From an uncultured Rickettsiales bacterium (GTDB lineage Bacteria > Pseudomonadota > Alphaproteobacteria > Rickettsiales > CAZNNM01), in contig CAZNNM010000002.1 of the NCBI GenBank assembly GCA_964574415.1, positions 311,141 to 375,140 of the forward strand: a stretch of DNA of 64,000 nt. The letters are read 5' to 3'. Under the pieces are notes generated by a model. The model was not told where the DNA came from. It ran no database searches and saw only the letters and a program-made list of their open reading frames with translations. Made by a program: the position numbers and the translations under genes. Below, piece by piece: positions 17,794 to 62,313 of the stretch. Each line of letters opens with the position of its first letter. The first letter of the stretch is position 1.

Positions 17794-18768
17794 ATGTCAG
17801 TACACCCTATTCGTCATGACTGGACAAGCGCAGAGATTCAAGCGCTGTTTGACCTTCCCTTTAATGACCTGCTCTTCCAAGCGCAAACCACCCATCGTGC
17901 GCATTTTGACCCGAACGCAGTGCAAGTCAGCACTTTGCTTAGCATCAAAACCGGCTCCTGCCCAGAAGATTGCAAATATTGCCCGCAATCGGCACATTAT
18001 AATACCGGCCTCAAAAAAGAGCCCTTGATGGAAGTGCAGCGTGTTATCACCGAAGCAAAAAAAGCCAAAGAGGCTGGCGCGTCCCGTTTCTGCATGGGTG
18101 CGGCATGGCGGAATTTGAATGACCGTGATATGCCAGCCGTAGCGTCTATGATCCATGAAGTGAAATCCATGGGGCTAGAAACCTGCATGACACTGGGTAT
18201 GCTTGAGCAGCATCAAGCTATCGCCCTCAAAGAAGCAGGTCTGGATTACTATAACCACAATCTCGACACTTCCGAAGATTACTACAAAGAAATCATCACC
18301 ACCCGCACCTATGCAGACCGCCTGCAAACTTTAGAACATGTGCGTAATGCTGGGATGAATGTATGCTGTGGTGGTATTGTCGGTATGGGCGAAAGCGAGT
18401 TGGATCGCGTAGAGCTACTCAAAACCCTAGCCAACCTGCCTCAACATCCAGAAAGCGTGCCTATTAACCAGCTCGTACAAGTCGAAGGCACACCACTCAC
18501 AGGCGCACAAGCAACCGATCCGTTTGATTTCATCCGCATGATCGCCGTTGCACGCATCATCATGCCACAATCCTATGTCCGCCTGTCAGCTGGCCGTGAA
18601 GCGATGAGTGATGAGATGCAAGCTTTGTGTTTCTTCGCGGGTGCGAATTCGATTTTCTATGGTGAGAAATTGCTGACGACGGCTAACCCAAGTGAGAATG
18701 AGGATAAGGCACTGTTTGCACGATTAGGGATTCATCAGGAAACAGCGCAGGTGAAGGCGGCAGCGTAA
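17794..18768 (+). CDS. bioB: Biotin synthase
   Basis: Radical [31 protein letters not shown]. Confidence 0.97.
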
Positions 18769-48660: not shown

Positions 48661-51369
48661 ATGCCTCTAAGCTGGAACGAGATACGCAAACGTGCAATTG
48701 AATTTGCACAAGAATATGTGGATGCGACGCGAGAAAATGCGGAAACGCAATCATTCTACAACGAATTTTTCAACGTATTCGGTATTTCACGTCGTCGCGT
48801 AGCCGCGTTTGAAGAACCTGTTAGAAAATTAGGCGATAAACGTGGACGCATTGACTTATTCTGGAAAGGCGTATTGCTGATTGAACAAAAATCAAGCGGC
48901 CGTGATTTAGATGCAGCCTATACGCAAGCACTCGATTATTTCCCGAACCTGAAAGAGGAAGAGTTACCAAAATATATCCTCGTATCTGATTTTCAACGGT
49001 TCGAGCTATACGACCTTGAGACAAAAGCAGTAAACAAGTTCATGCTTGCTGAATTGCATAAAAACGTTGAACTCTTTGGTTTTATCGCGGGCTACCAGAA
49101 ACGTGAGTTCAAAGACCAAGACCCCGTAAATATCGAAGCATCCGAGCGCATGGGCAAGCTGCACGATATGCTCAAAGATGCAGGATATACAGGTCACGAA
49201 CTTGAACTTTTTCTAGTGCGACTGCTTTTCTGTCTATTCGCGGAAGACACCACTATTTTTGAAAAAGGTGCGTTTCAGTATTACATTGAAACCAAAACCA
49301 AGGAAGATGGCAGCGATTTAGGAATGCATCTTTCTGCACTATTTCAAGCGCTAAACACACCACATGAGAAACGTCAAAAAAATCTTGATGAAGCACTTAA
49401 CTCCTTTACCTATATCAACGGCAACTTATTTGCAGCCACGCTTCCTATTCCTGCTTTTGATAGCACCATGCGCAATTCGTTAATTAGTGCATGTTATTTC
49501 GATTGGAGTCGTATTTCTCCTGCTATTTTTGGCTCGCTGTTTCAATCGGTAATGGATAAAGACAAACGGCGCGGGGTAGGTGCTCACTACACTACCGAAA
49601 AGAATATCATGAAAATCTTGAAGCCACTGTTTCTGGATGCACTTCATGAGGAGTTTGAGAAGGCCAAAAAGGATAAAAAGAAACTGCATGCCTTTCATGA
49701 CAAGCTCGCTAAACTTACATTCTTTGACCCAGCTTGCGGCTGTGGCAACTTCTTGATTCTAGCCTACCGAGAACTGCGTGAGCTTGAAATTAAGTTACTT
49801 AGAGCCCTACACGACGATAAACAGCAGGTGTTAGATGTTAGCCAGTTATCACGCGTCGACGTAGATGCATTTTACGGTATTGAGATAGAAGAATTCCCTG
49901 CAAAAATAGCAGAAGTTGCGCTGTGGCTCATGGATCATCAAATGAATATCCGCCTCTCAGAAATGTTCGGGGTGTATTATGTACGATTGCCGTTAAGAAA
50001 ATCTGCACATATTCATCATGATAATGCGTTAAGGCTAGACTGGAAAGAAGTCATAGCTCCGGAGAAATTGAGCTACATTCTCGGAAATCCACCATTTATA
50101 GCCAAGCACTTAATGACCGACGAACAAGGCACAGAAATTGATACGCTGTTTCACGGGGTAAATGGCGCAGGGGTTCTTGATTATGTTACAGCGTGGTATT
50201 TGAAAGCCGCTCAGTATATTCAAGGCACTCATATCAGATGTGCTTTTGTTTCCACAAATTCCATTACACAAGGCGAGCAAGTAGCGGTGTTATGGCAGGA
50301 ATTATTTAGCCGTTACCATGTTAAGATTCATTTCGCGCATCGTACCTTTGCATGGAGCAGTGAAGCCAGAGGCAAAGCGGCTGTTTATTGTGTTATTATT
50401 GGCTTTTCTGCTTATGACAGCGATGACAAATTGCTTTATGATTATGATACACCAAAGGCAGAAGCGCATGAAATGCAGGTGCGTAATATCGCACCATATC
50501 TGGTTGAGGGGGACGATTTTGTAATCCCAAAGCGCAGCAAGCCGTTATGCAATTCACCAGAAATGATTTTTGGTAATAAACCTGTGGATAATGGAAATTT
50601 CTTTTTCACAGACAAAGAAAAGGGTGATTTTCTTGCTATCGAGCCACGCGCCGAAAAATTTATCCGCCCTTTCCTTAGTGCCAGAGAATATCTACATGGG
50701 GATAATCGTTGGTGTCTGTGGCTAAAAGATGCAGCCCCCGCTGAGTTATACAATCTGCCGAAGGTTATGGAACGTATTGAAGCGATAAAAAAATTTCGTT
50801 TAGCTAGTAAGAAAGCGCCTACACGCGAAACAGCAAATACACCGACACTATTCTCAGAGATTCGTCAACCAACCGGTAGTTACATTCTTATACCTCGCCA
50901 TACATCCGAGAATCGTAATTACGTCCCATTTGGTTTTTTTGATTCAGCTAGCATAGTTGCTGATAGCTGTAATTGTATTCCTGATGCCACTCTTTACCAC
51001 TTCGGCATTATTACTTCCGCCATGCACATGACATGGATGCGCTATGTGTGCGGTAGAATTAAAAGTGATTTTCGTTATTCTAATACGCTAGTTTACAACA
51101 CTTTCCCGTGGCCTACACCTACCGCGGCTCAAACAAAAGATATTGAGGCCAAAGCGCAAACAGTGTTGGATAGCTGTTCAGCATTCAGGCGGTCATGCTC
51201 GTTTACTGCTTTTTTGTATGCGGTTAGCGCATCTTCTATTTTCGATACGCTGGCTTCCCCATGTTTTATCAGCTTACCGGCCTTATCTTTTTTGCCAAAA
51301 TGTAGCCGAGCCGCATGTATTGCCTCTTTTCTTATGGCTCTCCATTTTGGATGCTTGGAATTGTGCTGA
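48661..51369 (+). CDS. MmeI-like Type IIL restriction-modification enzyme; C-terminus apparently replaced (probable pseudogene)
   Basis: RIDLFWKGVLLIEQKS nuclease motif, FFDPACGCGNF, GNPPF, TRD; after AQTVLD the frame reads antisense of the convergent ORF. Confidence 0.85.
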   Translation: MPLSWNEIRKRAIEFAQEYVDATRENAETQSFYNEFFNVFGISRRRVAAFEEPVRKLGDKRGRIDLFWKGVLLIEQKSSGRDLDAAYTQALDYFPNLKEEELPKYILVSDFQRFELYDLETKAVNKFMLAELHKNVELFGFIAGYQKREFKDQDPVNIEASERMGKLHDMLKDAGYTGHELELFLVRLLFCLFAEDTTIFEKGAFQYYIETKTKEDGSDLGMHLSALFQALNTPHEKRQKNLDEALNSFTYINGNLFAATLPIPAFDSTMRNSLISACYFDWSRISPAIFGSLFQSVMDKDKRRGVGAHYTTEKNIMKILKPLFLDALHEEFEKAKKDKKKLHAFHDKLAKLTFFDPACGCGNFLILAYRELRELEIKLLRALHDDKQQVLDVSQLSRVDVDAFYGIEIEEFPAKIAEVALWLMDHQMNIRLSEMFGVYYVRLPLRKSAHIHHDNALRLDWKEVIAPEKLSYILGNPPFIAKHLMTDEQGTEIDTLFHGVNGAGVLDYVTAWYLKAAQYIQGTHIRCAFVSTNSITQGEQVAVLWQELFSRYHVKIHFAHRTFAWSSEARGKAAVYCVIIGFSAYDSDDKLLYDYDTPKAEAHEMQVRNIAPYLVEGDDFVIPKRSKPLCNSPEMIFGNKPVDNGNFFFTDKEKGDFLAIEPRAEKFIRPFLSAREYLHGDNRWCLWLKDAAPAELYNLPKVMERIEAIKKFRLASKKAPTRETANTPTLFSEIRQPTGSYILIPRHTSENRNYVPFGFFDSASIVADSCNCIPDATLYHFGIITSAMHMTWMRYVCGRIKSDFRYSNTLVYNTFPWPTPTAAQTKDIEAKAQTVLDSCSAFRRSCSFTAFLYAVSASSIFDTLASPCFISLPALSFLPKCSRAACIASFLMALHFGCLELC

Positions 51370-51746
51370 TATTCTTCCTTCTTATCTGCGATGAAATTCT
51401 CTACAAACTCCGCGATTTCTATACTTTCAAAAATTCCGCGATAAGCTGGGCCAGACGTACGTTTCACCAGCCTCTCAATTTTATAGCCCCCCTCTCTATT
51501 TTTATCGAACAACCCCGCAATCCAGTCTAAAATTCTAGGGTGTAGGGGGTGGGGACTAAGCAGTGCCTCCGCAACAAGCGTAAGGTTGGGTTCAGCGTCT
51601 TTGGGTACTGGCTTCGCGCACCATTGCAGCTTTCCTTCGTGCATAATGCATGATGCTTCATATTGGAGGCCAAGCACTGTATGCACGAACACATCTTCAA
51701 TGTGGCAAATATCATCGGTCTTATGCGGCTTCACGCTTTTCCTCAT
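51129..51746 (-). CDS. Hypothetical protein downstream of integrase, probably 3'-truncated
   Basis: ATG 51746 overlaps the integrase end; last about 15 codons lie within MmeI-like coding sequence; start uncertain. Confidence 0.55.
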   Translation of the reverse strand: MRKSVKPHKTDDICHIEDVFVHTVLGLQYEASCIMHEGKLQWCAKPVPKDAEPNLTLVAEALLSPHPLHPRILDWIAGLFDKNREGGYKIERLVKRTSGPAYRGIFESIEIAEFVENFIADKKEEYQHNSKHPKWRAIRKEAIHAARLHFGKKDKAGKLIKHGEASVSKIEDALTAYKKAVNEHDRLNAEQLSNTVCALASISFV

Positions 51747-52935
51747 TGAGTTTTGTATCAAGGAAATCCGCCCACCACTGCATGAGCTTCTTGCGGTCTT
51801 CGAGGTAGATTGCCTTATTGTAGGTACCGCGTACCTTGGATTTTTCCACATGAGCAAGTTGCATTTCGATATGGTCAGGGTTGAAGCCCTTTTCATTCAA
51901 TATGGTGCTGGCAGTATGACGGAAACCATGAGGCGTTGCTTTAGAGGCGGTGAGCTTCTTGACCACTTTGATAAGCCCTACATCGGAAACAGGCTTTTTC
52001 GCACGTGTTCTGCCGGGAAAGAGCAAATCACCATCGCCGGTAATTTTTCGTATTTCCGCAATGGTGGCAAGTGCCTGCTGTGATAATGGTACCATATGCT
52101 CACGCTCGATTTTCATACGCGAAGCAGGAATTACCCACAATTTCTCTTTCTCATTGATTTCAGACCATGTTGCGCCACGTAATTCACCGGGACGCACAAA
52201 GGTCAGCGCAAGGAGCTTCACTGCAAGCTGCATTAGGGAATAATTTTCTGGGTCTTCGATACGTTGTAGGAATTCGGTCAATTCGTCTTCACGCAGATGG
52301 TCACGATTTTTGACCTTATTGCCTTGTATATATTTTGAACGGCCAAGCGCCGGGTTCATATCGCATAACCCTTGCACAATAGCGTGTTCAAAAATAGCCG
52401 TACAATACTGATTGATACGCTTTGCCACATCAGGAGCTTTGCGCTCCTCAATGCGTTTGAGAACACTCATAATATCCGGCACTTTCACTTCAGCGATAGG
52501 CTTCCAGCCGATAACGCTGAACACATCTTTCTCTAACCGGCTTAGAATATTCTTGGCATGCTTTGGTGCCCACACTTGTTTCTTATACCAATCGCGAGCA
52601 ACTACTTCAAAAGTGTTAGCGCTCTCTGTGACTTTCTGCTGATGGTCACTTTTCTTTTTGATATTCGGGTCTACACCCTTTTTGAGAAGCGCTTTTGCCT
52701 CATCCTTTAAGCGCCGTGCATCTGTGAGGCTAATTTTGCCTTCTGTGTTGCCGTATTGGCCAATAGTGAGAATGTTATACTTGCCATTAAATTTGTAGGG
52801 ATACTGCCAGACTTTAGTACCACTTGGTCGTACCAGTAATACCAAACCACCTTCATCATAGAGCTTATAAGGCGTATCCTTAGGTTTAGCGCCACGAATA
52901 GCGGTTTCAGGAAGCTTAGGATTTATCTTTGGCAT
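51721..52935 (-). CDS. P4-like tyrosine integrase with N-terminal arm-binding domain
   Basis: KPKDTPYKLYDEGGL arm domain; RPGE, HGFRH, LAH, YNKAIY catalytic residues. Confidence 0.95.
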   Translation of the reverse strand: MPKINPKLPETAIRGAKPKDTPYKLYDEGGLVLLVRPSGTKVWQYPYKFNGKYNILTIGQYGNTEGKISLTDARRLKDEAKALLKKGVDPNIKKKSDHQQKVTESANTFEVVARDWYKKQVWAPKHAKNILSRLEKDVFSVIGWKPIAEVKVPDIMSVLKRIEERKAPDVAKRINQYCTAIFEHAIVQGLCDMNPALGRSKYIQGNKVKNRDHLREDELTEFLQRIEDPENYSLMQLAVKLLALTFVRPGELRGATWSEINEKEKLWVIPASRMKIEREHMVPLSQQALATIAEIRKITGDGDLLFPGRTRAKKPVSDVGLIKVVKKLTASKATPHGFRHTASTILNEKGFNPDHIEMQLAHVEKSKVRGTYNKAIYLEDRKKLMQWWADFLDTKLNEEKREAA

Positions 52936-53100
52936 AGCGGGCACTTCTATAGGGTATATTCATACCCCATACCCTATCATATACCCTAAAAAATGCAAGA
53001 TGCGGACGTGTCCACATGTATCCACACGGACTAAAAGCCACTTTAATATGCTGTTTTTTCTTGATTTAAAATCTTATTTGGAAGTACTTGGAAGTAAGTT

Positions 53101-53145
53101 TGGTTGCGGGGGCAGGATTTGAACCTGCGGCCTTCAGGTTATGAG
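53101..53145 (-). pseudogene. Partial tRNA-fMet(CAT): 3' 45 nt att-site duplication, not an intact tRNA
   Basis: Minus strand CTCATAACCTGAAGGCCGCAGGTTCAAATCCTGCCCCCGCAACCA; the 5' half (D arm, acceptor 5' strand) is absent. Confidence 0.9.
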
Positions 53146-53343
53146 TGGTGCTTGGGGCATTTCTCCCCGCTTACTTTGTTTTCTTTGTGTTTCTGCAAAG
53201 CGTTGTTTTTACTGGATAAATGGCAGTTATCATGCGCTTAGTGTTTCTACCGGCTGCGCCGTGATTTTCTGCCTCTTGCTTCCATAGTGCTTCCACGGAA
53301 GCAGGCAACCGCAGCCCATAATTGAAACGAAAAGAGGTTGCCA

Positions 53344-54513
53344 ATGCCAAAACTGACCAAGCGGTTTATAGATGCCGCAGAAATACAATGCAAAGACTAT
53401 TTCATCTTTGATTCCGAGCTGCCCTGCTTTGGGGTGCGGGTCATGCCATCGGGCCGTAAGTCCTACGTGATTCAATATCGGGCCGAGCGAAAAAAGATTC
53501 GGCGCAAGAGCCTTGGTATGCATGGAGTGGTTCCGCTGGAGGAAGCTCGGAAGAAAGCCTTCAAAATTCTGGCGGCTGTGCAATCGGGCGATGATCCTGT
53601 CGGAGAGGAACGCGCCAAGCAATATGCACTGACCGTCAACGACCTTGCGGAGCGATTCATAGAGGAACACGTGGATGTGCATTTGAAACCGCGCACTGCT
53701 GATGGCTACAAACGCAACCTTAAGAAATTCATCCTGCCTCAGATTGGCCATCTGAAGATTACGGATGTGACGCGAGCCGATATATCGGCATTTCACCATA
53801 CGCGTCGCAAATCGCCTTACGAGGCGAACCGGTGTTTGGAGATCATATCCAAAATGTTTAATCTGGCTGAGATGTGGGGGCTGCGTCCGGATGGCACCAA
53901 TCCTCGTCGCCATATCAAGAAATACCCTGAAAAGAAGCGCGAACGGTTTTTGACCCCGGACGAAACCAAGCGCTTGGGTGCCACGCTGAAACAGATGCAT
54001 GCAGAAGGCGTGGAATCGCACTCCGCAGTCAACTGCATCAAACTGTTGTTGCTGACCGGGTGTCGCCTGAGCGAAATACAAACCCTGCAATGGAAATTCA
54101 TCGACTGGGCTGACTCTACGATCAAATTGCCTGATTCTAAAACCGGCGCGAGAGTCATTTATGCTGGTGAGCATGTGTTGGACGTGCTGCGGGCTATCAA
54201 AGCGCACCCTGACACACCTGCCGACAATCCTTATGTGATTTACGGAACGCTTGAGGGGGCGTACCTCACTGATATGCAAAAGCCGTGGCGGCGCATCCGC
54301 AAGCGTGCCGGTCTGGAAGATGTGCGCATCCATGACCTGCGTCATAGTTTTGCCTCCTATGCAGTTAGCCAAGGCATGAGCCTGCCTATGATAGGAAAGC
54401 TGCTCGGCCACACACAGGTGCAAACCACGGCACGCTATGCCCATCTTATGTCCGACCCGATCAAACAAGCCGCCGGTCAGGTGTCTGGTAATATTGCTGG
54501 GCTGGTATCGTGA
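53344..54513 (+). CDS. Tyrosine integrase (alphaproteobacterial type with arm-binding domain)
   Basis: FDSELPCFGVRVMPSGRKSY arm domain; TGCRLSE, HDLRH, LGH, TARY. Confidence 0.95.
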   Translation: MPKLTKRFIDAAEIQCKDYFIFDSELPCFGVRVMPSGRKSYVIQYRAERKKIRRKSLGMHGVVPLEEARKKAFKILAAVQSGDDPVGEERAKQYALTVNDLAERFIEEHVDVHLKPRTADGYKRNLKKFILPQIGHLKITDVTRADISAFHHTRRKSPYEANRCLEIISKMFNLAEMWGLRPDGTNPRRHIKKYPEKKRERFLTPDETKRLGATLKQMHAEGVESHSAVNCIKLLLLTGCRLSEIQTLQWKFIDWADSTIKLPDSKTGARVIYAGEHVLDVLRAIKAHPDTPADNPYVIYGTLEGAYLTDMQKPWRRIRKRAGLEDVRIHDLRHSFASYAVSQGMSLPMIGKLLGHTQVQTTARYAHLMSDPIKQAAGQVSGNIAGLVS

Positions 54514-54612
54514 ATTCAGGTTTTATTCTATCCCGGTGGATAGACTCAAATACAACTGAACCACCTCGACACCACAATACCCGCAAAGCCCTGTCCTGAC
54601 TAGAGGAAGTTG

Positions 54613-54636
54613 CCCGCGCTACCGGAGCGCGGGTTT
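54613..54636 (+). terminator. Possible terminator hairpin between convergent integrase and HTH genes
   Basis: CCCGCGCT-accgg-AGCGCGGG-TTT. Confidence 0.5.
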
Positions 54637-54674
54637 CCCATGAAGATGATAGACTCGTTTTTGGATGAATTCAG

Positions 54675-55265
54675 CTATGTAACAGTGTAAAATCCGTTCT
54701 TCCGCGCCCCGTTGTAGCAGATAGCGTTATGCTCCAACATGCTGGCGATGTCACGTTTGGCGGTCTTATGGCTCACCCACCACTGCGTGGCAATATCATC
54801 GGCTTTTAGTTTCTTTCCTCTCTGTAATTCACCGATGAACCATAGCTGACGATGGTTCAATTTGATAGCCACATCCAGATTGACCATCACATTTATAGGG
54901 ACATATTTGTCCCTATAAACTGGGTTTTCCGGTCTGCTAAGTGCCGTTTTAGGGTGCATTTTTTCGGGTATGTTTTCGGCTAAACAAACCTCCCACACAT
55001 CCGCACGACCGATCATCTCCAGCAGTCCTTTAAGCACCTGCGGATACACTCCGGCCAGCATGATTAAATGCGCGGATTTCGGCGCATTGATTGCCTGACA
55101 CCACTTATTGATTGTGTGCAAATTAGCGCCTGTAATGCGCCCAATTTCTTTCACCACGGAAGTGTCATCCTGATGCTCGTGACGCAGGGCGTTGGCCACC
55201 ATGGTTGCCACTGATTGGTCATCAATAGACGATAGTAAAACTTGGCTAAAATTCTGAAAAGACAT
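54675..55265 (-). CDS. Putative DNA-binding protein with XRE-like N-terminal and winged-HTH C-terminal domains
   Basis: KEIGRITGANLHTINKW; ADDIATQWWVSHKTAKRDIASM...GARKNGFY. Confidence 0.65.
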   Translation of the reverse strand: MSFQNFSQVLLSSIDDQSVATMVANALRHEHQDDTSVVKEIGRITGANLHTINKWCQAINAPKSAHLIMLAGVYPQVLKGLLEMIGRADVWEVCLAENIPEKMHPKTALSRPENPVYRDKYVPINVMVNLDVAIKLNHRQLWFIGELQRGKKLKADDIATQWWVSHKTAKRDIASMLEHNAICYNGARKNGFYTVT

Positions 55266-55359
55266 GTAATCGCTCCTTTTGTTAAAATGATGGAAAGGAG
55301 CATTTTCGCTGGCGTTTCAGTGAATGCCGAAGAATTGCATATAAAACAGGATCATTCAG

Positions 55360-56928
55360 TTGAGAGATTTATTTGGCTTGGCAAACGGAGATACGAAAAC
55401 CCCGTCGATCAACATGGCGGCGATGTATGTGCGCATGTCCACTGACCACCAGAAATACTCAACGGAAAATCAGGCCGAAGCGATCAAGGAATATGCCAAA
55501 CGCAAAAAGCTGGATATCGTTAAGACCTATGCCGATGAAGGCAAAAGTGGATTGAATCTGGCGGGGCGTGATGCGCTCAAAAGCCTGATTGATGATGTGC
55601 AGAATAATCGTGCCGAGTTCAAAGTGATTTTAGTGCTGGATGTCACGCGCTGGGGACGGTTTCAGGATGCGGATGAAAGCGCCTATTATGAGTATATCTG
55701 CCGCCGCGCTGGCATTGACGTGCAGTATGTGGCCGAGCAGTTTGAAAATGACGGCAGCCCAGTATCCAACATTGTAAAAAGCGTGAAGCGCTCAATGGCT
55801 GGCGAGTATAGCCGTGAGCTATCCAACAAGGTGTTCGCTGGTCAATGCCGCCTAATCGAGAAAGGCTTCCGGCAAGGTGGTCCCGCTGGCTTCGGCCTGC
55901 GCCGCTTGTTGATTGATGAGCATGGCAATCCCAAAGCGGAGTTGAAACAAGGTGAGCATAAAAGCCTGCAAACGGATCGAGTGGTCCTGATCCCCGGTCC
56001 TGATGAGGAAATCAATATCGTGCGCTGGATTTACCATGCCTTCATTCATGACGGCATGAAAGAAACAGAGATCGCCCATTCCCTGAATCAGCGGGGCATT
56101 CTCACGGATTTGGACAGGCCGTGGACACGCGGCACAGTGCATCAGGTGCTCACCAATGAAAAATATATTGGCAACAACGTCTTTAACCGCACATCGCATA
56201 AGCTGAAAAAGCGCCGAGTGGAAAACTCACCGGATATGTGGGTGCGTGCCGATGGCGTGTTCGACGCGATTGTCGATCCCAGCGACTTTTACACAGTGCA
56301 AGGCATTTTACGCGAGCGCAGCCGCAGGTTCTCCGATGACGAGATGTTGGAAAAATTGCGTTATTTGCATGAGCGTCAAGGCTGGCTCTCTGGCATTATC
56401 ATTGACGAGCAAGAGGATATGCCATCCAGCAGTGCATACCAGCATCGTTTCGGAAGTTTGCTTCGAGCTTACAAGCTGATCGGCTATACCCCTGACCGGG
56501 ATTATCGCTATATCGAGATCAACCGCCGTCTGCGCACACTTTACGCAGAAACGGTCGAGGACACCATTCGCAAGATACGCGATCTGGGCGCATCCATCCA
56601 CCGGGAGGTGGGTTCGGACTTGCTCTATCTCAATAATGAGCTGACCGTTTCCATTATCATTTGCCGCTGCATACAGACACCCACCGGAGCCTATCGCTGG
56701 AAGATACGGTTAGATAGCGGGCTGGAGCCAGACATCACCGTGGCCATACGCATGGATGCCTGCAACGAAAATCCACTGGATTATTACCTATTGCCATCAT
56801 TGGACATTGAGAATCCGAAGATTCGGCTGTCAGAAAACAACGGTTTGGCGCTTGATGCCTATCGCTTTGATGATCTCGAATACTTCCTGATGCTGGCTGA
56901 ACGCACACCAATCAGGGAGGCCGCATGA
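55360..56928 (+). CDS. Large serine recombinase-family protein
   Basis: YVRMST catalytic Ser, YADEGKSG, DVTRWGRFQ, GFRQGG..GFG, TVHQVLTNEKYIG; start may be ATG 55414. Confidence 0.92.
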   Translation: MRDLFGLANGDTKTPSINMAAMYVRMSTDHQKYSTENQAEAIKEYAKRKKLDIVKTYADEGKSGLNLAGRDALKSLIDDVQNNRAEFKVILVLDVTRWGRFQDADESAYYEYICRRAGIDVQYVAEQFENDGSPVSNIVKSVKRSMAGEYSRELSNKVFAGQCRLIEKGFRQGGPAGFGLRRLLIDEHGNPKAELKQGEHKSLQTDRVVLIPGPDEEINIVRWIYHAFIHDGMKETEIAHSLNQRGILTDLDRPWTRGTVHQVLTNEKYIGNNVFNRTSHKLKKRRVENSPDMWVRADGVFDAIVDPSDFYTVQGILRERSRRFSDDEMLEKLRYLHERQGWLSGIIIDEQEDMPSSSAYQHRFGSLLRAYKLIGYTPDRDYRYIEINRRLRTLYAETVEDTIRKIRDLGASIHREVGSDLLYLNNELTVSIIICRCIQTPTGAYRWKIRLDSGLEPDITVAIRMDACNENPLDYYLLPSLDIENPKIRLSENNGLALDAYRFDDLEYFLMLAERTPIREAA

Positions 56929-57821
56929 AACAAAAAGACCGCAAAGCTAAAATTAAGATGATCCCCATTGAACGGATCAACGTGTTGAATCCGCGTGTAC
57001 GGAGTCAGAAAATCTTTGTCGATATGGCAGAGAATATCACCAAGGTGGGATTGAAACGCCCGATCACCGTAACACCCACCGGCTCTGCTGGTGAAGGAAA
57101 AGAATATGATCTGGTGTGTGGCCAAGGAAGGATCGAGGCATTTCAGGCTTGTGGGCAAACGCACATCCCGGCAATCGTGATTGATGCTTCAGAGGAAGAA
57201 GCGCTCATCATGAGTCTTGTGGAGAATCTGGCTCGCAGGCAGCATCGCTCGCTTGATCTGCTGCATGGCATCGAGGTGTTACAGCAAAAAGGCTATGATG
57301 CGAAAACCATCGCCAAGAAAACTGGCCTCACTGAAAACTATGCCAAAGCGGTGCTGGATTTATTGGAGCTGGGGGAAGAACGGCTTTTGTCTGCGGTGGA
57401 AGCTGGTCACATGCCGGTCAGCGTGGCTGTTACCATTGCCAATTCGCCCAATGACGAGCAGAAAGCGTTGCAGGAAGCCTATGAAAATAACGAGCTGCGC
57501 GGCGGCAAGCTGAAAATGGCGAAGCGCCTACTGGAAACCCGCAAGCAGCGCGGCAAAGGGATTCGCCATCAATCTGGCAAAGGTGGCCGCAGCCGCAAGG
57601 CCGGTGCCATCTCTTCGCAGGATGTCCTCAAAATCTATCAGAAGGAAGTGGATCGCAAGCGATTGCTCACGCGCAAAGCGGATGCCGTCAGCAGCCGGAT
57701 GCTGTTCATCACCGAGGCGTTGCGCCGTCTTTACAGGGAAGATCATTTCACCACGCTGCTGAAAGCTGAGGGGCTGACAACCATGCCGAAGCAACTCTCC
57801 GCATTATTGGAGGCCAAATGA
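56925..57821 (+). CDS. ParB/Srx N-terminal domain protein with RepB-type C-terminus (copy 1)
   Basis: VGLKRPITV, LVCGQGRIEAF, SLVENLARR; ATGA overlap with the recombinase. Confidence 0.85.
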   Translation: MKQKDRKAKIKMIPIERINVLNPRVRSQKIFVDMAENITKVGLKRPITVTPTGSAGEGKEYDLVCGQGRIEAFQACGQTHIPAIVIDASEEEALIMSLVENLARRQHRSLDLLHGIEVLQQKGYDAKTIAKKTGLTENYAKAVLDLLELGEERLLSAVEAGHMPVSVAVTIANSPNDEQKALQEAYENNELRGGKLKMAKRLLETRKQRGKGIRHQSGKGGRSRKAGAISSQDVLKIYQKEVDRKRLLTRKADAVSSRMLFITEALRRLYREDHFTTLLKAEGLTTMPKQLSALLEAK

Positions 57822-58744
57822 CCAAAGACAAACAGATCAACGCATTACCGGATGGAGGCATTGCCATCGGTTTTGATAGTGACATGGTTACGCTCCGCAT
57901 CGACCAGATCGTGCCGATCAAGGTGGTGGCCAACACGCTGCAAAAAAGCTCTAAATATAAGCAGATTCTGTCCTCCATCCGTGAAGTGGGCGTGATCGAA
58001 CCGCCCGTTGTGGTACCGGAAGGAAAATCCAAGGAACGCTTCATTCTGCTTGATGGCCACATGCGTATCGAGGCGCTGAAGGAGCTGGGCAGCGATGAAG
58101 TAGTCTGTCTGATTTCCTCTGACGATGAAGCCTTCACCTATAACAAGCACGTCAACCGCATTTCTCCCATTCAGGAGCACCGTATGATCCGGCGTGCCGT
58201 TGAGCGTGGTGTGCCGGAGGAGAAGATCGCTAAGGCACTCTGTCTTGATGTGAAAAGCATTGTGATGAAGCGCAAATTACTGGACGGCATTTGCCCAGAA
58301 GCCTCTGAGATGCTGAAAGACAAGATGGTGGCCAACGGCGTGTTCCCGATTCTCAAACGCATGAAAGCCTACCGTCAGATTGATGCCATCACCCTGATGA
58401 ACGATACCGGCACTTATTCCGTGTCATACGCCAAGGCATTACTCGCGGCTACGCCCAAAGATCAGCTAGTAGAGCCAGATAAACCAAAGCGGATTAAGGG
58501 GCTGGACGCGGAACAGATGGCACGCATGGAGAGCGAAATGGCCAGTCTCCAGCGTGAATACAGATTGATCGAAGAAAACTACGGAACAGATGTGCTGAAT
58601 CTGACGCTTGCCAAAGGTTATCTTGGGTCGTTGCTCGGTAATGCGCGTGTGGTGCGTTACCTTGCCCAGCATCATCCGGAAATGCTCTCCGAGTTTCAAA
58701 AGATCACCGAGATTACGTCGCTGGATGGTGGCAAGGCGGCGTAG
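57818..58744 (+). CDS. ParB/Srx N-terminal domain protein with RepB-type C-terminus (copy 2)
   Basis: VGVIEPPVV, LLDGHMRIEAL, TYNKHVNRI; ATGA overlap. Confidence 0.85.
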   Translation: MTKDKQINALPDGGIAIGFDSDMVTLRIDQIVPIKVVANTLQKSSKYKQILSSIREVGVIEPPVVVPEGKSKERFILLDGHMRIEALKELGSDEVVCLISSDDEAFTYNKHVNRISPIQEHRMIRRAVERGVPEEKIAKALCLDVKSIVMKRKLLDGICPEASEMLKDKMVANGVFPILKRMKAYRQIDAITLMNDTGTYSVSYAKALLAATPKDQLVEPDKPKRIKGLDAEQMARMESEMASLQREYRLIEENYGTDVLNLTLAKGYLGSLLGNARVVRYLAQHHPEMLSEFQKITEITSLDGGKAA

Positions 58745-58839
58745 CTGAAGCAGGAATGTGTGGGCGGGCTGGACGCTGGAATCACATTTAACGGGGACCG
58801 GGACCCATAAGCGCCGGGACCGCAGGAGAAGCCGTTCGG

Positions 58840-58942
58840 GGATGTGCTCCGGTCATGGAGCGAGTGCGGTGGTGGGAATGACGGCGAACCCGTTCACAGC
58901 CCACTAGGTCGGCTTGAGTTTTCGCTGACCGTTTACGCATCC
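58840..58942 (+). ncRNA. Candidate structured RNA (multi-stem junction)
   Basis: Hand-folded stems: 58840-45/58937-42, 58846-50/58857-61, 58870-76/58900-06 with inner 58880-84/58890-94, and 58907-13/58924-30; strand and expression unproven. Confidence 0.4.
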
Positions 58943-58992
58943 ACACCGGCATGATTGGTAGCTTCAGGCCATGATGCCGGTGTGCTTAATTT
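58942..58992 (+). terminator. Long hairpin at the GC-rich/AT-rich boundary
   Basis: CACACCGGCAT / ATGCCGGTGTG 11-bp stem, then CTTAATTTT. Confidence 0.55.
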
Positions 58993-59074
58993 TAAGCTTA
59001 TAAGAAGTGTATACAAAACAACTTAGGTCACTATAATCAGCACTTTAACATGGAACAATTTGCTGGATATAAAA

Positions 59075-60244
59075 ATGAGCCTTGAAGAATTGCTCAAGCG
59101 TAGCCTTGAGGAAGAAGAAGTTTCTACAGTTAGCAATGCATTTGGAGGCGCAAAAGCGTCTGGGAACACCAAAAGCTATTCTGTCGCAAGAATACGTGAC
59201 TTACTAATCTATAACGCCCAAGATCATAATTGTGAATTTGCTGAAATTATAAAAAGATGCCAGGCTATTTTGCCAGCAAAGCTTTTCAGAAGCTCCATAG
59301 GAAATTTGATACGGTTTTCTTTTCTTATTGAACTGACCAACTTAACGGTAGGGTCTACAAAAATGAAAACCAGATGGCTACCCGGACTTATCTTGATGCC
59401 TCAGGATGGATCATTTGAACCAATCCAAGGCTCATTTGAGCCAGGTAACGATCCTAGGTCCTCTTCCTTTGAAGACTGTTTAGCGGTTTTTGTAAACTGC
59501 ATAAGAATATTATTGGAAAAAGTTTCTTCTGATCAATCACTTGTGACAAAGCTTGAGCAATTATCCGCTACTACGAGTTTTCCCTATGAGTTTGTATTTG
59601 ATTATGTCGACACAGCTTTATTTCCTATTCATGTAAAATCAAACGTATCCTGGGTGTTTAATGAAGACATAGAGTGGCTTCTATCGGCACGACCAATTAT
59701 CTGGCCTTGCTTAACAAAGCAACAAAAAGACAAAATTCAGACAAAAACTTACAAAACTGATAGGGCCTTAACTGGCAAAGACAAAACTAATCGTGCCAAA
59801 AGGTGGGAAGTATTATCAGCAGACTTCCAGCACGCTTCATTGACCCAGTGCTGGAGTGTTGAAAGAAAGCTTCTTGGTGAATTAGTTGGATTTGAAGGCT
59901 TTCCACAAGATACAAAGCAGCTATTAATTCAGAATGGCGTGCAAACTGAATTTGCAATAAGCCGATGTCCGGTTACCTTAGAGCCACTACAATTCTCTGT
60001 GCTCCTAAATCCTGCTGTTCACGGGAGATCTGATTATCAAGTCGGCCACTTACACCCGCTGAAAAAAGGTGGAAGGCATGATGGTGAAAATGTTTGTTGG
60101 CAATCTTGCGATGGAAACCGTATTCAAGGAGACTTGATGATAGAAGAGATAGTCGAACTCTTAGATAAGATTATGCAACGAAAGATAGAGCTTGGAGGCT
60201 CTCATATTGCCATTGTTAATCAAGAAGTGGCAAAAGACGGCTGA
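59075..60244 (+). CDS. Putative HNH (beta-beta-alpha-Me) restriction endonuclease
   Basis: C-terminal CPVT...GHLHPLKKGGRHDGENVCWQSCDGN; directly upstream of an N6 methyltransferase. Confidence 0.7.
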   Translation: MSLEELLKRSLEEEEVSTVSNAFGGAKASGNTKSYSVARIRDLLIYNAQDHNCEFAEIIKRCQAILPAKLFRSSIGNLIRFSFLIELTNLTVGSTKMKTRWLPGLILMPQDGSFEPIQGSFEPGNDPRSSSFEDCLAVFVNCIRILLEKVSSDQSLVTKLEQLSATTSFPYEFVFDYVDTALFPIHVKSNVSWVFNEDIEWLLSARPIIWPCLTKQQKDKIQTKTYKTDRALTGKDKTNRAKRWEVLSADFQHASLTQCWSVERKLLGELVGFEGFPQDTKQLLIQNGVQTEFAISRCPVTLEPLQFSVLLNPAVHGRSDYQVGHLHPLKKGGRHDGENVCWQSCDGNRIQGDLMIEEIVELLDKIMQRKIELGGSHIAIVNQEVAKDG

Positions 60245-60360
60245 AATTTTGTTATCAATCTTAAAAAGACAAACTTCTGCTGGAATCTTCTAAAAAAACA
60301 GTTTATGTTTTTGATGAAATGAAAAACATAAACTGAAATTTGCAAATCGAGAGGCATGCT

Positions 60361-62313
60361 ATGAAAGGGGTTCAGCTAGATTTATCCACAGATGTTGAAA
60401 TGCATGAGGTTTACCGAAGAATAAGAAATTATCTTGCAGGTAGAGTTATTGGCATAACTAGAGATAAAGCGTTGCTCCATGAAGTAGTCAAATGCCTTTT
60501 CTGCAAAATAGAATTATCGGAAAACTTCGCACAAGGACTCTCGGGAAGCGATGAAGAGAACGCAAAAACTTATCGCAAATCATTTTCTAATCTTAAAGAA
60601 AGACTTCCTCATATCTTCGGTGAAGACGAAGAAATTTTACTAGATCCTATTTCTATTAGCTACGTTGATAGAGAGTTATCGTTACTAAATCTTTCTGACC
60701 CGCAAAAAGACCCTCTCGGTGAACTGTACCAGGCATTTATTGGTTCTGATATGCGTATGGCGGAAGGTCAGTTTTTTACCCCCCATCCAGCTATAGCATG
60801 GCTTGTTGAAGCAATAGATTTAAAGCCCGGTGAGAAAGTAATAGACCCTGCTTGCGGACCAGGAGGTTTTCTCAGCTATGCAGCAAGATTTTTATTACGT
60901 AGCGGTGTTGATAGAAAAAGTGTTAGCGCAAATTTATTTGGCATTGAAAAAGATGAGTATCTTTCGCAACTAGCTAATGCTCACATAGCGATGGCTACCT
61001 TAGAAAAGGCGAATATTTTTTGTGCCGATTCAATAGAGAAAAAAGATAATAAAGGAAATCGCCTCAGTTTAGATATGGAGGGGCAATTTGATGTTGTGTT
61101 GGCAAATCCGCCTTTTGGAGCGAAAATAAAAACGGGTTCCGAGGAGGTTAGAAAAACTTTTGACCTGGCTTATAAATGGAAATTAGATAAGAAAACAGGT
61201 AGAATTCTCAAGACTGATATTTTGCAAACAAATACACCACCTCAAATTTTATTTATTGAACTCTGCCTTAAGCTTCTCAAGCCAGGTGGCAGAATGGGAA
61301 TCGTTGTTCCCGAAAGCATGATATCAAACTCTTCAACCAGTTATGTAGTTCAGTATATTCGTGATAATGCTCAAATATCAGCTGTATGCGGCATGCCAGA
61401 GTCCTTATTCAAAACAAGTGGCAAAGGTGGAACTCATACTAAAACATGCCTATTGATTGCAACTAAATCATCCAAAAAGAAAGGCACAAATAATTCCGTA
61501 TTTATGGCTGAAGCTCAGTGGTGTGGGCATGATAGTAGAGGAAATAAAATCCCCAATAATGATTTGCCGATTACGTTGAAAAATTACAAGCAGCGCAAAG
61601 AAAGTGATAAGTCATACAGCCATACAGGTTATATGGTCGCACAGGATGATATTCGAGAGAATATTTTAGCCCCAAGATATTATAATCCAGAGCCAATCGA
61701 GAATATGCGCTTATTGTCAGAAACACATGATATTATCTCTATTGAAGAATTAGTACGAGATGGCGTTATCTCTTTTTCAACAGGTGATGAAGTGGGTAAA
61801 TTGGCCTACGGAACGGGGCCAATTCCTTTTGTAAGGACTTCGGATATTTCTAATTGGGAGGTAAAGCTAGACCCAAAACATGGAGTTTCCGAGGAAATCT
61901 ACTCGTCCTTATCGAAAAGACAGGATGTTCGGGAAGGTGACTTGCTAATGGTTCGTGATGGAACCTATTTAATAGGCGCTTGTGCATATATATCAAAGTA
62001 TGATGAGAAAATGGTATATCAGAGCCATCTTTATAAAATTCGTATACACAAAAAAGAGGTTCTTTCTCCATTTCTACTACTAGCCCTTTTGTCATGTGAG
62101 CCAGTTTTAATGCAAATTAAGGCGAAGCGATTTACTCAAGACATTATTGATACACTCGGGAAACGAGTTAATGAGTTGCTTTTACCTATCCCCAAATCAT
62201 CAACACATAAGAAACAAATTGAAGATATGGTAAAAACCTCCGTAGAGGACAGAATAGAGGCTCGTGAATTGGCTCGTTCTGCAAAGACTTTGATTCTATC
62301 AAAGGCTGCTTAG
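60361..62313 (+). CDS. N6-adenine DNA methyltransferase (HsdM-like) fused to a single HsdS-like target-recognition domain
   Basis: GQFFTP, IDPACGPGGFL, NPPFG, then IPFVRTSDI...GDLLMVRDG...LLLPIP TRD pattern. Confidence 0.88.
   Translation: MKGVQLDLSTDVEMHEVYRRIRNYLAGRVIGITRDKALLHEVVKCLFCKIELSENFAQGLSGSDEENAKTYRKSFSNLKERLPHIFGEDEEILLDPISISYVDRELSLLNLSDPQKDPLGELYQAFIGSDMRMAEGQFFTPHPAIAWLVEAIDLKPGEKVIDPACGPGGFLSYAARFLLRSGVDRKSVSANLFGIEKDEYLSQLANAHIAMATLEKANIFCADSIEKKDNKGNRLSLDMEGQFDVVLANPPFGAKIKTGSEEVRKTFDLAYKWKLDKKTGRILKTDILQTNTPPQILFIELCLKLLKPGGRMGIVVPESMISNSSTSYVVQYIRDNAQISAVCGMPESLFKTSGKGGTHTKTCLLIATKSSKKKGTNNSVFMAEAQWCGHDSRGNKIPNNDLPITLKNYKQRKESDKSYSHTGYMVAQDDIRENILAPRYYNPEPIENMRLLSETHDIISIEELVRDGVISFSTGDEVGKLAYGTGPIPFVRTSDISNWEVKLDPKHGVSEEIYSSLSKRQDVREGDLLMVRDGTYLIGACAYISKYDEKMVYQSHLYKIRIHKKEVLSPFLLLALLSCEPVLMQIKAKRFTQDIIDTLGKRVNELLLPIPKSSTHKKQIEDMVKTSVEDRIEARELARSAKTLILSKAA

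What the first reader, a model, noticed from the sequence alone, without database searches (positions are those of the whole stretch)
55360..58744. Coupled serine recombinase-ParB-ParB operon of unknown function
Three genes are chained by ATGA overlaps, implying a stoichiometric complex. The recombinase has the catalytic YxRxS and recombinase domains, but the usual zinc-ribbon/coiled-coil is replaced by a different alpha/beta C-terminal domain (ELTVSIIICRC...PDITVAIRMD...LDYYLLP). Both ParB-like proteins keep the GxxR motif (GQGR, GHMR) used for CTP binding in ParB clamps (established), yet there is no ParA and the element already has a tyrosine integrase with its own att. Hypothesis: a heteromeric CTP-dependent sliding clamp licenses or orients the recombinase, or the trio is a self-contained mobile or resolution unit that shuffles adjacent defence cargo. 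I recall this trio as recurrent in proteobacterial islands but know of no functional characterisation.
Basis: partly seen in the sequence, partly recalled or inferred. Interest (0 to 1): 0.75.

Follow-up and report, generated by a model that had tools for sequence, protein, structure and literature searches.

The report
Recombinase–two ParB module with new RNA
The three coupled genes are real and belong to a widespread, uncharacterised portable module of four genes, usually followed by a conserved structured RNA that no database lists, which probably moves itself between plasmids, prophages and defence islands.

Summary
A serine recombinase (55414-56928), ParB-A (56925-57821) and ParB-B (57818-58744) are chained by ATGA overlaps. 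In 77 related loci the order never varies and no ParA is present.

The unit is larger than reported:
- A divergent 196-aa DeoR-like regulator (54675-55265) travels with the trio in 66 of 77 loci.
- A structured RNA of about 140-200 nt follows the ParB-B stop (58790-58933, extending to about 58984). It occurs in about two thirds of loci, has seven helices including a pseudoknot, and 22 of 32 pairs show compensatory changes. It has no Rfam match.

Everything beyond these parts is unrelated between genomes. Neighbours on both sides are rich in defence, toxin-antitoxin and integrase genes.

In Agrobacterium plasmids, a 3.9-kb RNA-less version sits at 97% identity in two unrelated contexts. About 30-bp imperfect direct repeats bound it each time.

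My best reading (about 0.4) is a self-contained site-specific recombination element. The recombinase would act as integrase, the ParB pair as an accessory DNA-binding complex, and the regulator as repressor. The RNA's role is unknown.

The rivals are a defence system and a stabilisation module. I found no literature on the trio. Canonical CTP-binding motifs are only partly kept, so the CTP-clamp idea is untested.

The parts
54675..55265 (-). Divergent 196-aa gene with a C-terminal DeoR-like winged helix-turn-helix. Probable repressor of the operon.
   Evidence: Clusters with an upstream divergent gene of about 200 aa in 66 of 77 loci. HTH_DeoR reaches E 7.5e-6 in the Sphingobium homologue and is weak in the window copy. 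Annotated as a DeoR regulator in L001.
55272..55301 (.). Palindrome GCTCCTTT-N14-AAAGGAGC beside the start of the 196-aa gene. Candidate operator or ParB loading site.
   Evidence: Read from the sequence. Equivalent, more perfect palindromes sit at the same place in L012, L017, L019, L031 and L041. Function is inferred.
55414..56928 (+). Serine recombinase: catalytic domain, recombinase domain, HNH-repeat-like unit and a novel alpha/beta C-terminal domain, with no zinc ribbon.
   Evidence: Pfam. YVRMSTDHQ and D76/R79/R82 are invariant in 32 homologues. Foldseek's top hits are the Bxb1 and PhiC31 integrases. C-terminus.
56925..57821 (+). ParB-A: ParB N-terminal domain plus RepB-type HTH/C-terminal region. 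C-G-Q-G-R and E-N-L-A-R are invariant.
   Evidence: ATGA overlap with the recombinase.
57818..58744 (+). ParB-B: a diverged ParB N-terminal domain plus RepB region. D-G-H-x-R and T-Y-N are invariant, and the catalytic E of box III is lost.
   Evidence: ATGA overlap with ParB-A.
58745..58984 (+). Conserved structured RNA, probably the 3' UTR of the operon. The core is 58790-58933 (helices P1-P6 plus a pseudoknot). It extends to a 3' hairpin at 58942-58984, whose loop GCUUCAG (58961-58967) is complementary to CUGAAGC at 58745-58751.
   Evidence: nhmmer and alignment. RNAalifold gives 19 of 28 pairs compensatory. Pair counts: 97.3% paired, 22 of 32 pairs compensatory, slid controls 31-47%. The covariance model scores 125.8 bits in the window. 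No Rfam hit. Extension.
59060..62313 (+). Variable cargo slot. Here it holds a 394-aa protein with an HNH-like motif and a 657-aa N6-adenine methyltransferase fused to a specificity domain (restriction-modification-like).
   Evidence: Pfam, PADLOC and PHROGs. The close relatives L006, L007 and L010 carry different genes between the RNA and the phage lysozyme gene.

Best explanation
The locus is the core of a small, self-contained site-specific recombination element. It comprises a divergent DeoR-like repressor, a zinc-ribbon-less large-serine-type recombinase, two paralogous ParB-like proteins and, in most copies, a structured RNA at the 3' end.

Shown:
- The parts are inherited as one unit.
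- The unit has sharp ends.
- It sits in unrelated places on plasmids, chromosomes and prophages.
- In one clade it is bounded by att-like repeats.

Inferred:
- The recombinase cuts and rejoins the element's ends to excise and integrate it.
- ParB-A and ParB-B form an asymmetric heterodimer that binds DNA in or near the element. It would then either control synapsis or direction, or hold the excised circle.
- The 196-aa protein represses the operon at the palindrome.
- The RNA, transcribed as the operon's 3' UTR, is a protein-binding or regulatory partner rather than a programmable guide.
- Defence genes accumulate next to the RNA end because it is a recombination-prone junction.
For: - Unit: SR is present in 77 of 77 loci, ParB-B in 77, ParB-A in 75 and the upstream regulator in 66. 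The next commonest neighbour occurs in only 8 loci, and gene order is fixed.
- Sharp ends: homology between genomes runs only from the stop of the upstream gene to the ParB-B stop or the end of the RNA.
- Agrobacterium: L004 7448-11351 equals L091 4001-7904 at 96.9% in unrelated contexts. Each end carries CGCCTTGA-N7-YGAACC-NTT-GGCCC. Single copies lie at junctions in plasmids without the module, L092 and L090.
- Catalytic residues of the recombinase are invariant, and the fold matches integrases.
- Breakpoints fall inside or at the RNA. L071 and L072 are identical for 4.4 kb and then diverge within the RNA. Three relatives carry different cargo right after the RNA hairpin. L084 has two RNA copies flanking 4.9 kb of cargo.
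- The module occurs alone between ordinary genes in L009.
Against: - No excised circle and no clean empty site was seen. L092 and L090 are not true empty sites of the same locus.
- The att-like repeat was found in only one clade (L004/L091, with one inverted copy in L003). No terminal repeats were found in RNA-bearing copies.
- In the window's own clade the tyrosine integrase stop nearly abuts the regulator gene's stop, leaving no room for a separate left att site.
- Copies are usually single per genome, and the two copies found in one genome are divergent. It therefore does not behave like a multiplying insertion sequence.
- Self-contained operons in variable island contexts are equally typical of defence systems.
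- About one third of copies lack the RNA, so the RNA is not needed for the genes to persist.
Confidence: 0.4

Rival explanations
1. The module is an anti-phage or anti-plasmid (inter-element competition) system. The ParB pair would load on incoming or competing DNA. The recombinase would then break or rearrange that DNA, or switch on a neighbouring effector. The RNA would be a sensor or regulator.
For: It is a self-contained operon with a patchy distribution and fully variable flanks. Neighbours on both sides are rich in defence and toxin-antitoxin genes: DISARM-like SNF2 helicases, SoFic, MmeI and other methylases, GmrSD, HipA, AbiE and DarT. In the window it lies between MmeI/AAA_13 and a restriction-modification cargo inside a prophage.
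Against: No PADLOC model matches the recombinase or ParB-A, and ParB-B gives only weak domain-level hits. I know of no defence system built on a serine recombinase. Mobile elements also collect in defence islands, so association alone does not decide. The att-like repeats at the ends are not expected of a defence operon.
Confidence: 0.22
2. The module is a maintenance cassette recruited by larger mobile elements. The recombinase would resolve multimers or control excision. The ParB pair would bind a centromere-like palindrome to stabilise or silence the element without a dedicated ParA.
For: Both ParB proteins carry RepB-type partition domains. The module is found on many large plasmids, including conjugative ones. 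It sits directly beside tyrosine integrases at island ends in 8 of about 62 loci and beside the prophage integrase here. A conserved palindrome lies in the regulatory region.
Against: No ParA was found in any of 77 loci. The module occurs alone between ordinary chromosomal genes in L009. Host plasmids have their own rep/par systems. The recombinase is of the large (integrase/transposase) type, not a small resolvase. NCBIfam partition_RepB scores 21.8 against a cut-off of 201.5.
Confidence: 0.18
3. The conserved downstream element acts as folded single-stranded DNA rather than as RNA. It might be a single-strand initiation site, or a promoter used when a plasmid or island enters a cell as a single strand.
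For: Covariation cannot tell RNA from single-stranded DNA, since G-T pairs are tolerated in both. The Sphingobium copy lies among typical conjugative leading-region genes: ArdC-like zincin, SSB and a ParB-like protein.
Against: The element always lies on the coding strand, 0-75 nt after the ParB-B stop, and ends in terminator-like hairpins. That is the layout of a 3' UTR. It also occurs in prophages and chromosomes with no conjugation genes nearby.
Confidence: 0.07

Closest known systems
Large serine recombinases (phage integrases such as Bxb1 and PhiC31; transposases TnpX/TndX; SCCmec CcrA/B)
   Same: N-terminal resolvase catalytic domain with the Ser nucleophile, followed by the 'Recombinase' domain. 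The best structural matches are Bxb1 and PhiC31. The weak best NCBIfam match is CcrB. Like these, it is associated with a discrete mobile DNA segment.
   Different: There is no zinc-ribbon/coiled-coil domain, which in the known enzymes holds the att-site and directionality logic. In its place are an HNH-repeat-like unit and an unmatched alpha/beta domain. It is always coupled to two ParB-like genes, with no known recombination directionality factor. The att sites are not defined.
ParB/Noc/KorB-type CTP-dependent DNA clamps and RepB of repABC plasmids
   Same: ParB N-terminal fold plus a central HTH and a RepB-type C-terminal region. Sequence alignment runs to Spo0J and Noc across boxes I-III and the HTH. 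ParB-A keeps ENLxR and the last Arg of box II.
   Different: The two paralogues are always together with no ParA. GERR is replaced by an invariant GQGR (ParB-A) and GHxR (ParB-B). ParB-B has YN instead of EN. All scores are far below the NCBIfam cut-offs for RepB, Noc or ParB equivalogs. CTP binding is untested.
IS607-family elements (serine recombinase TnpA plus TnpB with its omega RNA at the element's 3' end)
   Same: The layout is similar: serine recombinase first, accessory protein gene(s) next, and a structured non-coding RNA at the 3' boundary of the mobile unit.
   Different: The recombinase is of the large type, not the small MerR-HTH IS607 type (IS607 model 38.8 bits against a cut-off of 110). 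The accessory proteins are ParB-like, not RuvC nucleases. The RNA shows no variable guide-like segment and no excess complementarity to flanking DNA.
TIGR-TasA loci operonised with a ParB-like gene (tasParB; PMC12045711)
   Same: This is the only precedent I found for a ParB homologue conserved in an operon with an RNA-dependent DNA-targeting system.
   Different: There is no Tas/Nop-domain protein and no tandem guide array here. The RNA is a single structured unit and a recombinase is present.
Integrons and prophage or satellite defence hotspots
   Same: A conserved recombinase-bearing platform is followed by a junction after which unrelated, often defence-related, genes are found.
   Different: There is no tyrosine IntI and no attC-like sites around the cargo. 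Cargo exchange could equally come from homologous recombination in the conserved flanks.

Membership tests
Large serine recombinase | Resolvase-type catalytic domain with the conserved Ser nucleophile and Arg residues | tested here: met
   PF00239 at E 1.5e-22. Y5-V-R-M-S9-T-D-H-Q and D76/R79/R82 are invariant in 32 sequences.
Large serine recombinase | 'Recombinase' domain (PF07508) after the long helix | tested here: met
   PF07508 at E 2.9e-23, residues 216-320. Foldseek hits Bxb1 and PhiC31 at E 4e-9 to 7e-9.
Large serine recombinase | Zinc-ribbon domain with an embedded coiled-coil | tested here: not met
   No PF13408 hit at E<=0.01, nor at E<=0.5 on the C-terminal 209 aa. There are no Cys4 clusters. 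The model shows helices plus a beta-sheet.
Large serine recombinase | Defined attP/attB sites with a central dinucleotide, and demonstrated integration or excision | tested here: inconclusive
   About 30-bp imperfect direct repeats lie at both ends in the Agrobacterium clade. No repeats were found in RNA-bearing copies. Activity is not testable here.
ParB CTPase clamp | ParB N-terminal (ParB/Srx) domain | tested here: met
   ParB-A scores 42.6 bits on PF02195, above the 26.3 cut-off. ParB-B scores 20.6 bits, below it, but aligns to Spo0J and Noc.
ParB CTPase clamp | Box II GERRxR arginine patch that binds the CTP phosphates | tested here: not met
   ParB-A has GQGR and ParB-B has GH(L/M)R. Both are invariant across 75-77 homologues, and only the last Arg is kept.
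ParB CTPase clamp | Box III ENLxR (catalytic Glu/Asn) | tested here: inconclusive
   ParB-A has an invariant E100-N101-x-A-R104. ParB-B has an invariant T-Y-N in its place, so Glu is lost. This would fit an asymmetric dimer, but that is inference.
ParABS partition system | Partner ParA ATPase and a parS centromere | tested here: not met
   No ParA-like gene recurs among the neighbours in 77 loci, and none is in the window. Only a candidate palindrome exists.
repABC RepB | Equivalog-level similarity to RepB (TIGR03454), next to repA and repC | tested here: not met
   ParB-B scores 21.8 bits against a cut-off of 201.5. No repA or repC lies adjacent.
IS607 family | Small serine recombinase with an N-terminal MerR-like HTH (NF033518) | tested here: not met
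   38.8 bits against a cut-off of 110, and the match covers the catalytic domain only.
Known RNA families (Rfam 15) | A covariance-model match for the downstream RNA | tested here: not met
   No match at E<=1 over 54400-59200 on either strand.
Known defence systems (PADLOC-DB 2.0) | An HMM match of the component proteins to a catalogued system | tested here: not met
   No hit for the recombinase or ParB-A. ParB-B hits only ParB-like N-terminal regions of a methyltransferase model and PD-Lambda-5_A, at E 2e-5 to 4e-3.

The most novel reading that the evidence does not exclude
The recombinase, the ParB-A/ParB-B heterodimer and the structured RNA form one ribonucleoprotein machine. That would be a new class of RNA-dependent serine-recombinase system, in which the RNA scaffolds or licenses DNA capture and recombination. 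Such a machine might insert or exchange cargo, often defence genes, at the RNA-proximal junction.

The evidence leaves this open:
- The RNA is almost exclusively linked to ParB-B (20 of 22 evaluable hits from an RNA-only search).
- It has highly conserved unpaired nucleotides and a pseudoknot.
- Recombination breakpoints cluster in and just after it.
Probability: 0.15. Interest if true: 0.95.

Novelty: new variant of a known kind. Interest (0 to 1): 0.78.

Why it matters
If the best reading is right, this is an unrecognised family of small mobile elements that is common in Alphaproteobacteria and their plasmids and prophages. There are 423 relatives in species-representative genomes and thousands of protein clusters.

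Its integrase lacks the domain that sets site choice and direction in all studied large serine recombinases. It relies instead on two ParB-like partners. That would give a new way of controlling serine recombination and a new job for ParB-fold proteins outside partition.

Independently of the mechanism, the downstream RNA is a well-supported new structured RNA class with a pseudoknot and no database entry. The element's RNA-side junction marks a place where defence genes are exchanged.

Serine recombinases are genome-engineering tools, so a variant governed by accessory proteins or an RNA would be of practical interest.

Tried and rejected
- RNA as a guide to flanking DNA: the longest shared or complementary words between each RNA and its own flanks were no longer than with other loci's flanks. 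Rejected in that simple form.
- A partial RNA copy at the left end (att duplication): an HMM of the RNA's 3' half found nothing significant there.
- Terminal inverted or direct repeats in the window: none above chance.
- tRNA genes as a common target: not consistently adjacent.
- Empty-site search around the Tritonibacter copy: uninformative. The Agrobacterium comparison gave related junctions but no true empty site.
- E. coli genomes: no match.
- Fold of the recombinase C-terminal domain: Foldseek gave only non-significant, PD-(D/E)xK-like resemblances.
- Similarity between the Agrobacterium end motif (YGAACC-TTCGG-CCC) and the RNA's P5/P4 segment (CGAACCCGTTCGGAGCCC): noted but not statistically tested, and left unexplained.
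- Literature: seven searches found nothing on this trio or RNA.
Full report
**1. The observation.**
- The recombinase reads from TTG 55360 or, more plausibly, ATG 55414 to 56928. Conservation among homologues starts at '..AAMYVRMS'.
- ParB-A is 56925-57821 and ParB-B is 57818-58744. Both junctions are ATGA.
- Pfam gives Resolvase plus Recombinase for the first protein, with no zinc-ribbon domain. Both of the others get ParB_N plus RepB, though ParB-B's ParB_N score is below the curated cut-off.
- NCBIfam places none of them in a named equivalog. PADLOC has no model for the recombinase or ParB-A.

**2. The unit is bigger than a trio.** A divergent gene of about 196 aa (54675-55265, minus strand) with a C-terminal DeoR-like helix-turn-helix accompanies the trio.

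I fetched 80 loci from species-representative genomes; 423 relatives were found in all. I added plasmid and metagenome loci and clustered all flanking ORFs. The results:
- Recombinase and ParB-B: 77 loci each.
- ParB-A: 75 loci.
- Upstream gene: 66 loci.
- Next commonest neighbour, a tyrosine integrase: only 8 loci.

Gene order is invariant. The recombinase is the most conserved part (64-85% identity to the window's protein across distant lineages). The ParB proteins are less so (about 48-87%), and the regulator is least conserved.

**3. A new structured RNA.** Aligning the DNA after ParB-B showed a conserved non-coding block.
- RNAalifold predicts 28 pairs, 19 of them with compensatory changes.
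- I specified a seven-helix structure, including a pseudoknot between the P1 loop and a downstream CCGG. On 46 sequences it is 97.3% paired, and 22 of 32 pairs have double changes. Versions slid by 1-3 columns pair at only 31-47%.
- Both variable pseudoknot pairs covary (G-C to C-G in 12 sequences, G-C to A-U in 6).
- Frequent G-U pairs place the functional strand on the operon's strand.
- A covariance model finds the element in 52 searched loci. It always starts -2 to 75 nt (median 43) after the ParB-B stop, so it is most likely the operon's 3' UTR.
- In the window the core is 58790-58933 (125.8 bits).
- In the window's sub-clade, a further hairpin (58942-58984) carries a loop GCUUCAG complementary to CUGAAGC right after the stop codon. 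L010 keeps the loop on a different stem.
- Rfam 15 has no match at E<=1.

A protein-independent pattern scan of viral contigs, followed by the model, gave 25 RNAs. Twenty of the 22 with enough upstream sequence have ParB-B directly upstream. Two related 'orphans' lie between a host gene and a phage tailspike-like gene, and one of them is truncated at its 5' end.

About a third of modules lack the RNA, in scattered clades. These include L009, a close relative of the window, and L082, a close relative of the RNA-bearing L080.

**4. Boundaries and mobility.** Pairwise comparisons show that related modules share DNA only from the stop of the upstream gene to the ParB-B stop or the RNA's end. Flanks are unrelated.

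The clearest case is in Agrobacterium:
- A 3.9-kb RNA-less module in pAtC58 (L004 7448-11351) recurs at 96.9% identity in pAtEML4 (L091), between different genes.
- In both plasmids each end carries an imperfect direct repeat of about 30 bp, CGCCTTGA-N7-YGAACC-NTT-GGCCC.
- Single copies lie exactly at the points where two other plasmids (L092, L090) diverge from pAtC58.

This is the signature of site-specific insertion. But L092 and L090 are not true empty sites, and I found no such repeats in RNA-bearing clades.

Other breakpoints fall in or at the RNA:
- L071 and L072 are identical for 4.4 kb, then diverge from the P3 loop onward with compensated differences in P4.
- The window, L006, L007 and L010 carry four different cargos after the RNA.
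- L084 has two full RNA copies around a helicase-plus-PIN cargo.

**5. Context.** In the window, host genes (SecA, an MFS transporter, a pseudouridine synthase) end near 45 kb. The following then appear in order:
- an AAA_13 ATPase and an MmeI-type enzyme;
- two tyrosine integrases;
- a 3' fragment of a tRNA-Met gene (53101-53148), the att remnant of the second integrase;
- the module and its RNA;
- a restriction-modification-like cargo;
- phage lysis and tail genes.

In the relative L010, a tRNA-Gly gene lies about 360 nt upstream of the integrase, so here the module rides inside a prophage-like element. Across about 60 non-redundant loci, the two nearest genes on either side are enriched for defence, toxin-antitoxin and integrase families.

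**6. The proteins.**
- The recombinase's catalytic residues are invariant. Its model (mean pLDDT 64) matches Bxb1 and PhiC31 integrases over the first two domains.
- Residues about 300-362 resemble a 'homing endonuclease associated repeat': Pfam E 0.013, and multi-copy matches in other proteins.
- Residues about 365-460 form an alpha/beta domain with no significant structural neighbour.
- ParB-A aligns with Spo0J and Noc through boxes I-III and the HTH. GERR is GQGR and ENLxR is kept.
- In ParB-B, GERR is GH(L/M)R and the box III Glu is Tyr.

These variant motifs are invariant in 75-77 homologues. That argues for a functional but non-canonical and asymmetric pair of nucleotide-site-like pockets. 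CTP binding is therefore possible but untested.

A palindrome beside the regulator gene's start (55272-55301, better preserved in other loci) is a candidate operator or loading site.

**7. Interpretation.** The best-supported reading (confidence about 0.4) is a self-contained site-specific recombination element whose integrase is the serine recombinase.
- Shown: the co-inheritance, the sharp ends, the unrelated contexts and the att-like repeats in one clade.
- Inferred: the roles of the ParB pair, the regulator and the RNA.

Rivals:
- A defence or inter-element competition system (0.22).
- A maintenance cassette for larger elements (0.18).
- For the downstream element only, a single-stranded-DNA function (0.07).

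The RNA does not look like a programmable guide. It has no long variable single-stranded segment and no excess match to its flanks. Its conserved unpaired nucleotides suggest protein binding or tertiary structure.

**8. Novelty.** Seven literature searches found no description of this gene set or RNA. The nearest precedent for ParB homologues in an RNA-dependent system is tasParB in TIGR-Tas loci (PMC12045711). The components belong to known superfamilies, but two defining features failed here: the zinc ribbon of large serine recombinases and the GERR box of ParB CTPases. I therefore file it as a new variant of a known kind (a serine-recombinase element) carrying a new RNA class. There is a minority chance (about 0.15) that it is a categorically new ribonucleoprotein recombination system.

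Noticed in passing
window 53101-53148 (- strand): This is the 3' part of a tRNA-Met(CAT)-like gene, from the anticodon loop to CCA, next to tyrosine integrase 53338-54513. It is the att remnant of the integrase-borne element. Only one copy is in the window, so the partner must lie beyond 64000.
   Followed up: partly
window 51721-52944 (-) and 53338-54513 (+): Two tyrosine integrases sit back to back. The first adjoins an MmeI-type enzyme and an AAA_13 ATPase, which suggests two islands inserted in tandem. Homology to L007 begins inside the N-terminus of the first integrase, at 52745.
   Followed up: no
window 48661-51369: The MmeI-family type IIL enzyme ORF lacks an MmeI_C match. It ends in a Cys/Phe/Leu-rich tail that overlaps an antisense ORF (51129-51896). 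The 3' end may be disrupted or replaced.
   Followed up: no
window 54514-54674: The spacer between the integrase and the 196-aa gene is about 160 nt longer than in the close relatives L006 and L010, where the two stop codons nearly abut. It contains a GC-rich hairpin (54613-54635).
   Followed up: partly
window 59060-62313: The cargo looks like a two-gene restriction-modification system. One gene encodes a 394-aa protein with a C-terminal HNH-like motif and no Pfam family. The other encodes a methyltransferase fused to a specificity domain (MAD2/HsdM-like).
   Followed up: partly
L101 3787-3917 and L169 1541-1672 (IMG/VR contigs): These are orphan copies of the RNA with no recombinase or ParB genes. 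Both lie just before a pectate-lyase-like (tailspike) gene at a prophage edge. L169's copy lacks the 5' hairpin.
   Followed up: partly
L084 (Ruegeria conchae TW15) 13336-13468 and 18370-18501: Two complete RNA copies in direct orientation bracket a 1162-aa helicase-like gene and a PIN-domain gene. The second copy is slightly degenerate.
   Followed up: partly
L004 7449-7478 and 11331-11360; window RNA 58907-58930: The end motif of the Agrobacterium modules (YGAACC-TTCGG-CCC) resembles the RNA's P5/P4 segment (CGAACCCGTTCGGAGCCC). Both resemble the antisense of a tRNA T-arm. It is unexplained, and I did not test it against chance.
   Followed up: no
L038 (Candidatus Liberibacter ctenarytainae MAG): This reduced-genome plant-pathogen relative carries the trio and RNA at 88% DNA identity to free-living alphaproteobacterial copies. 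Its upstream regulator gene has been replaced.
   Followed up: no
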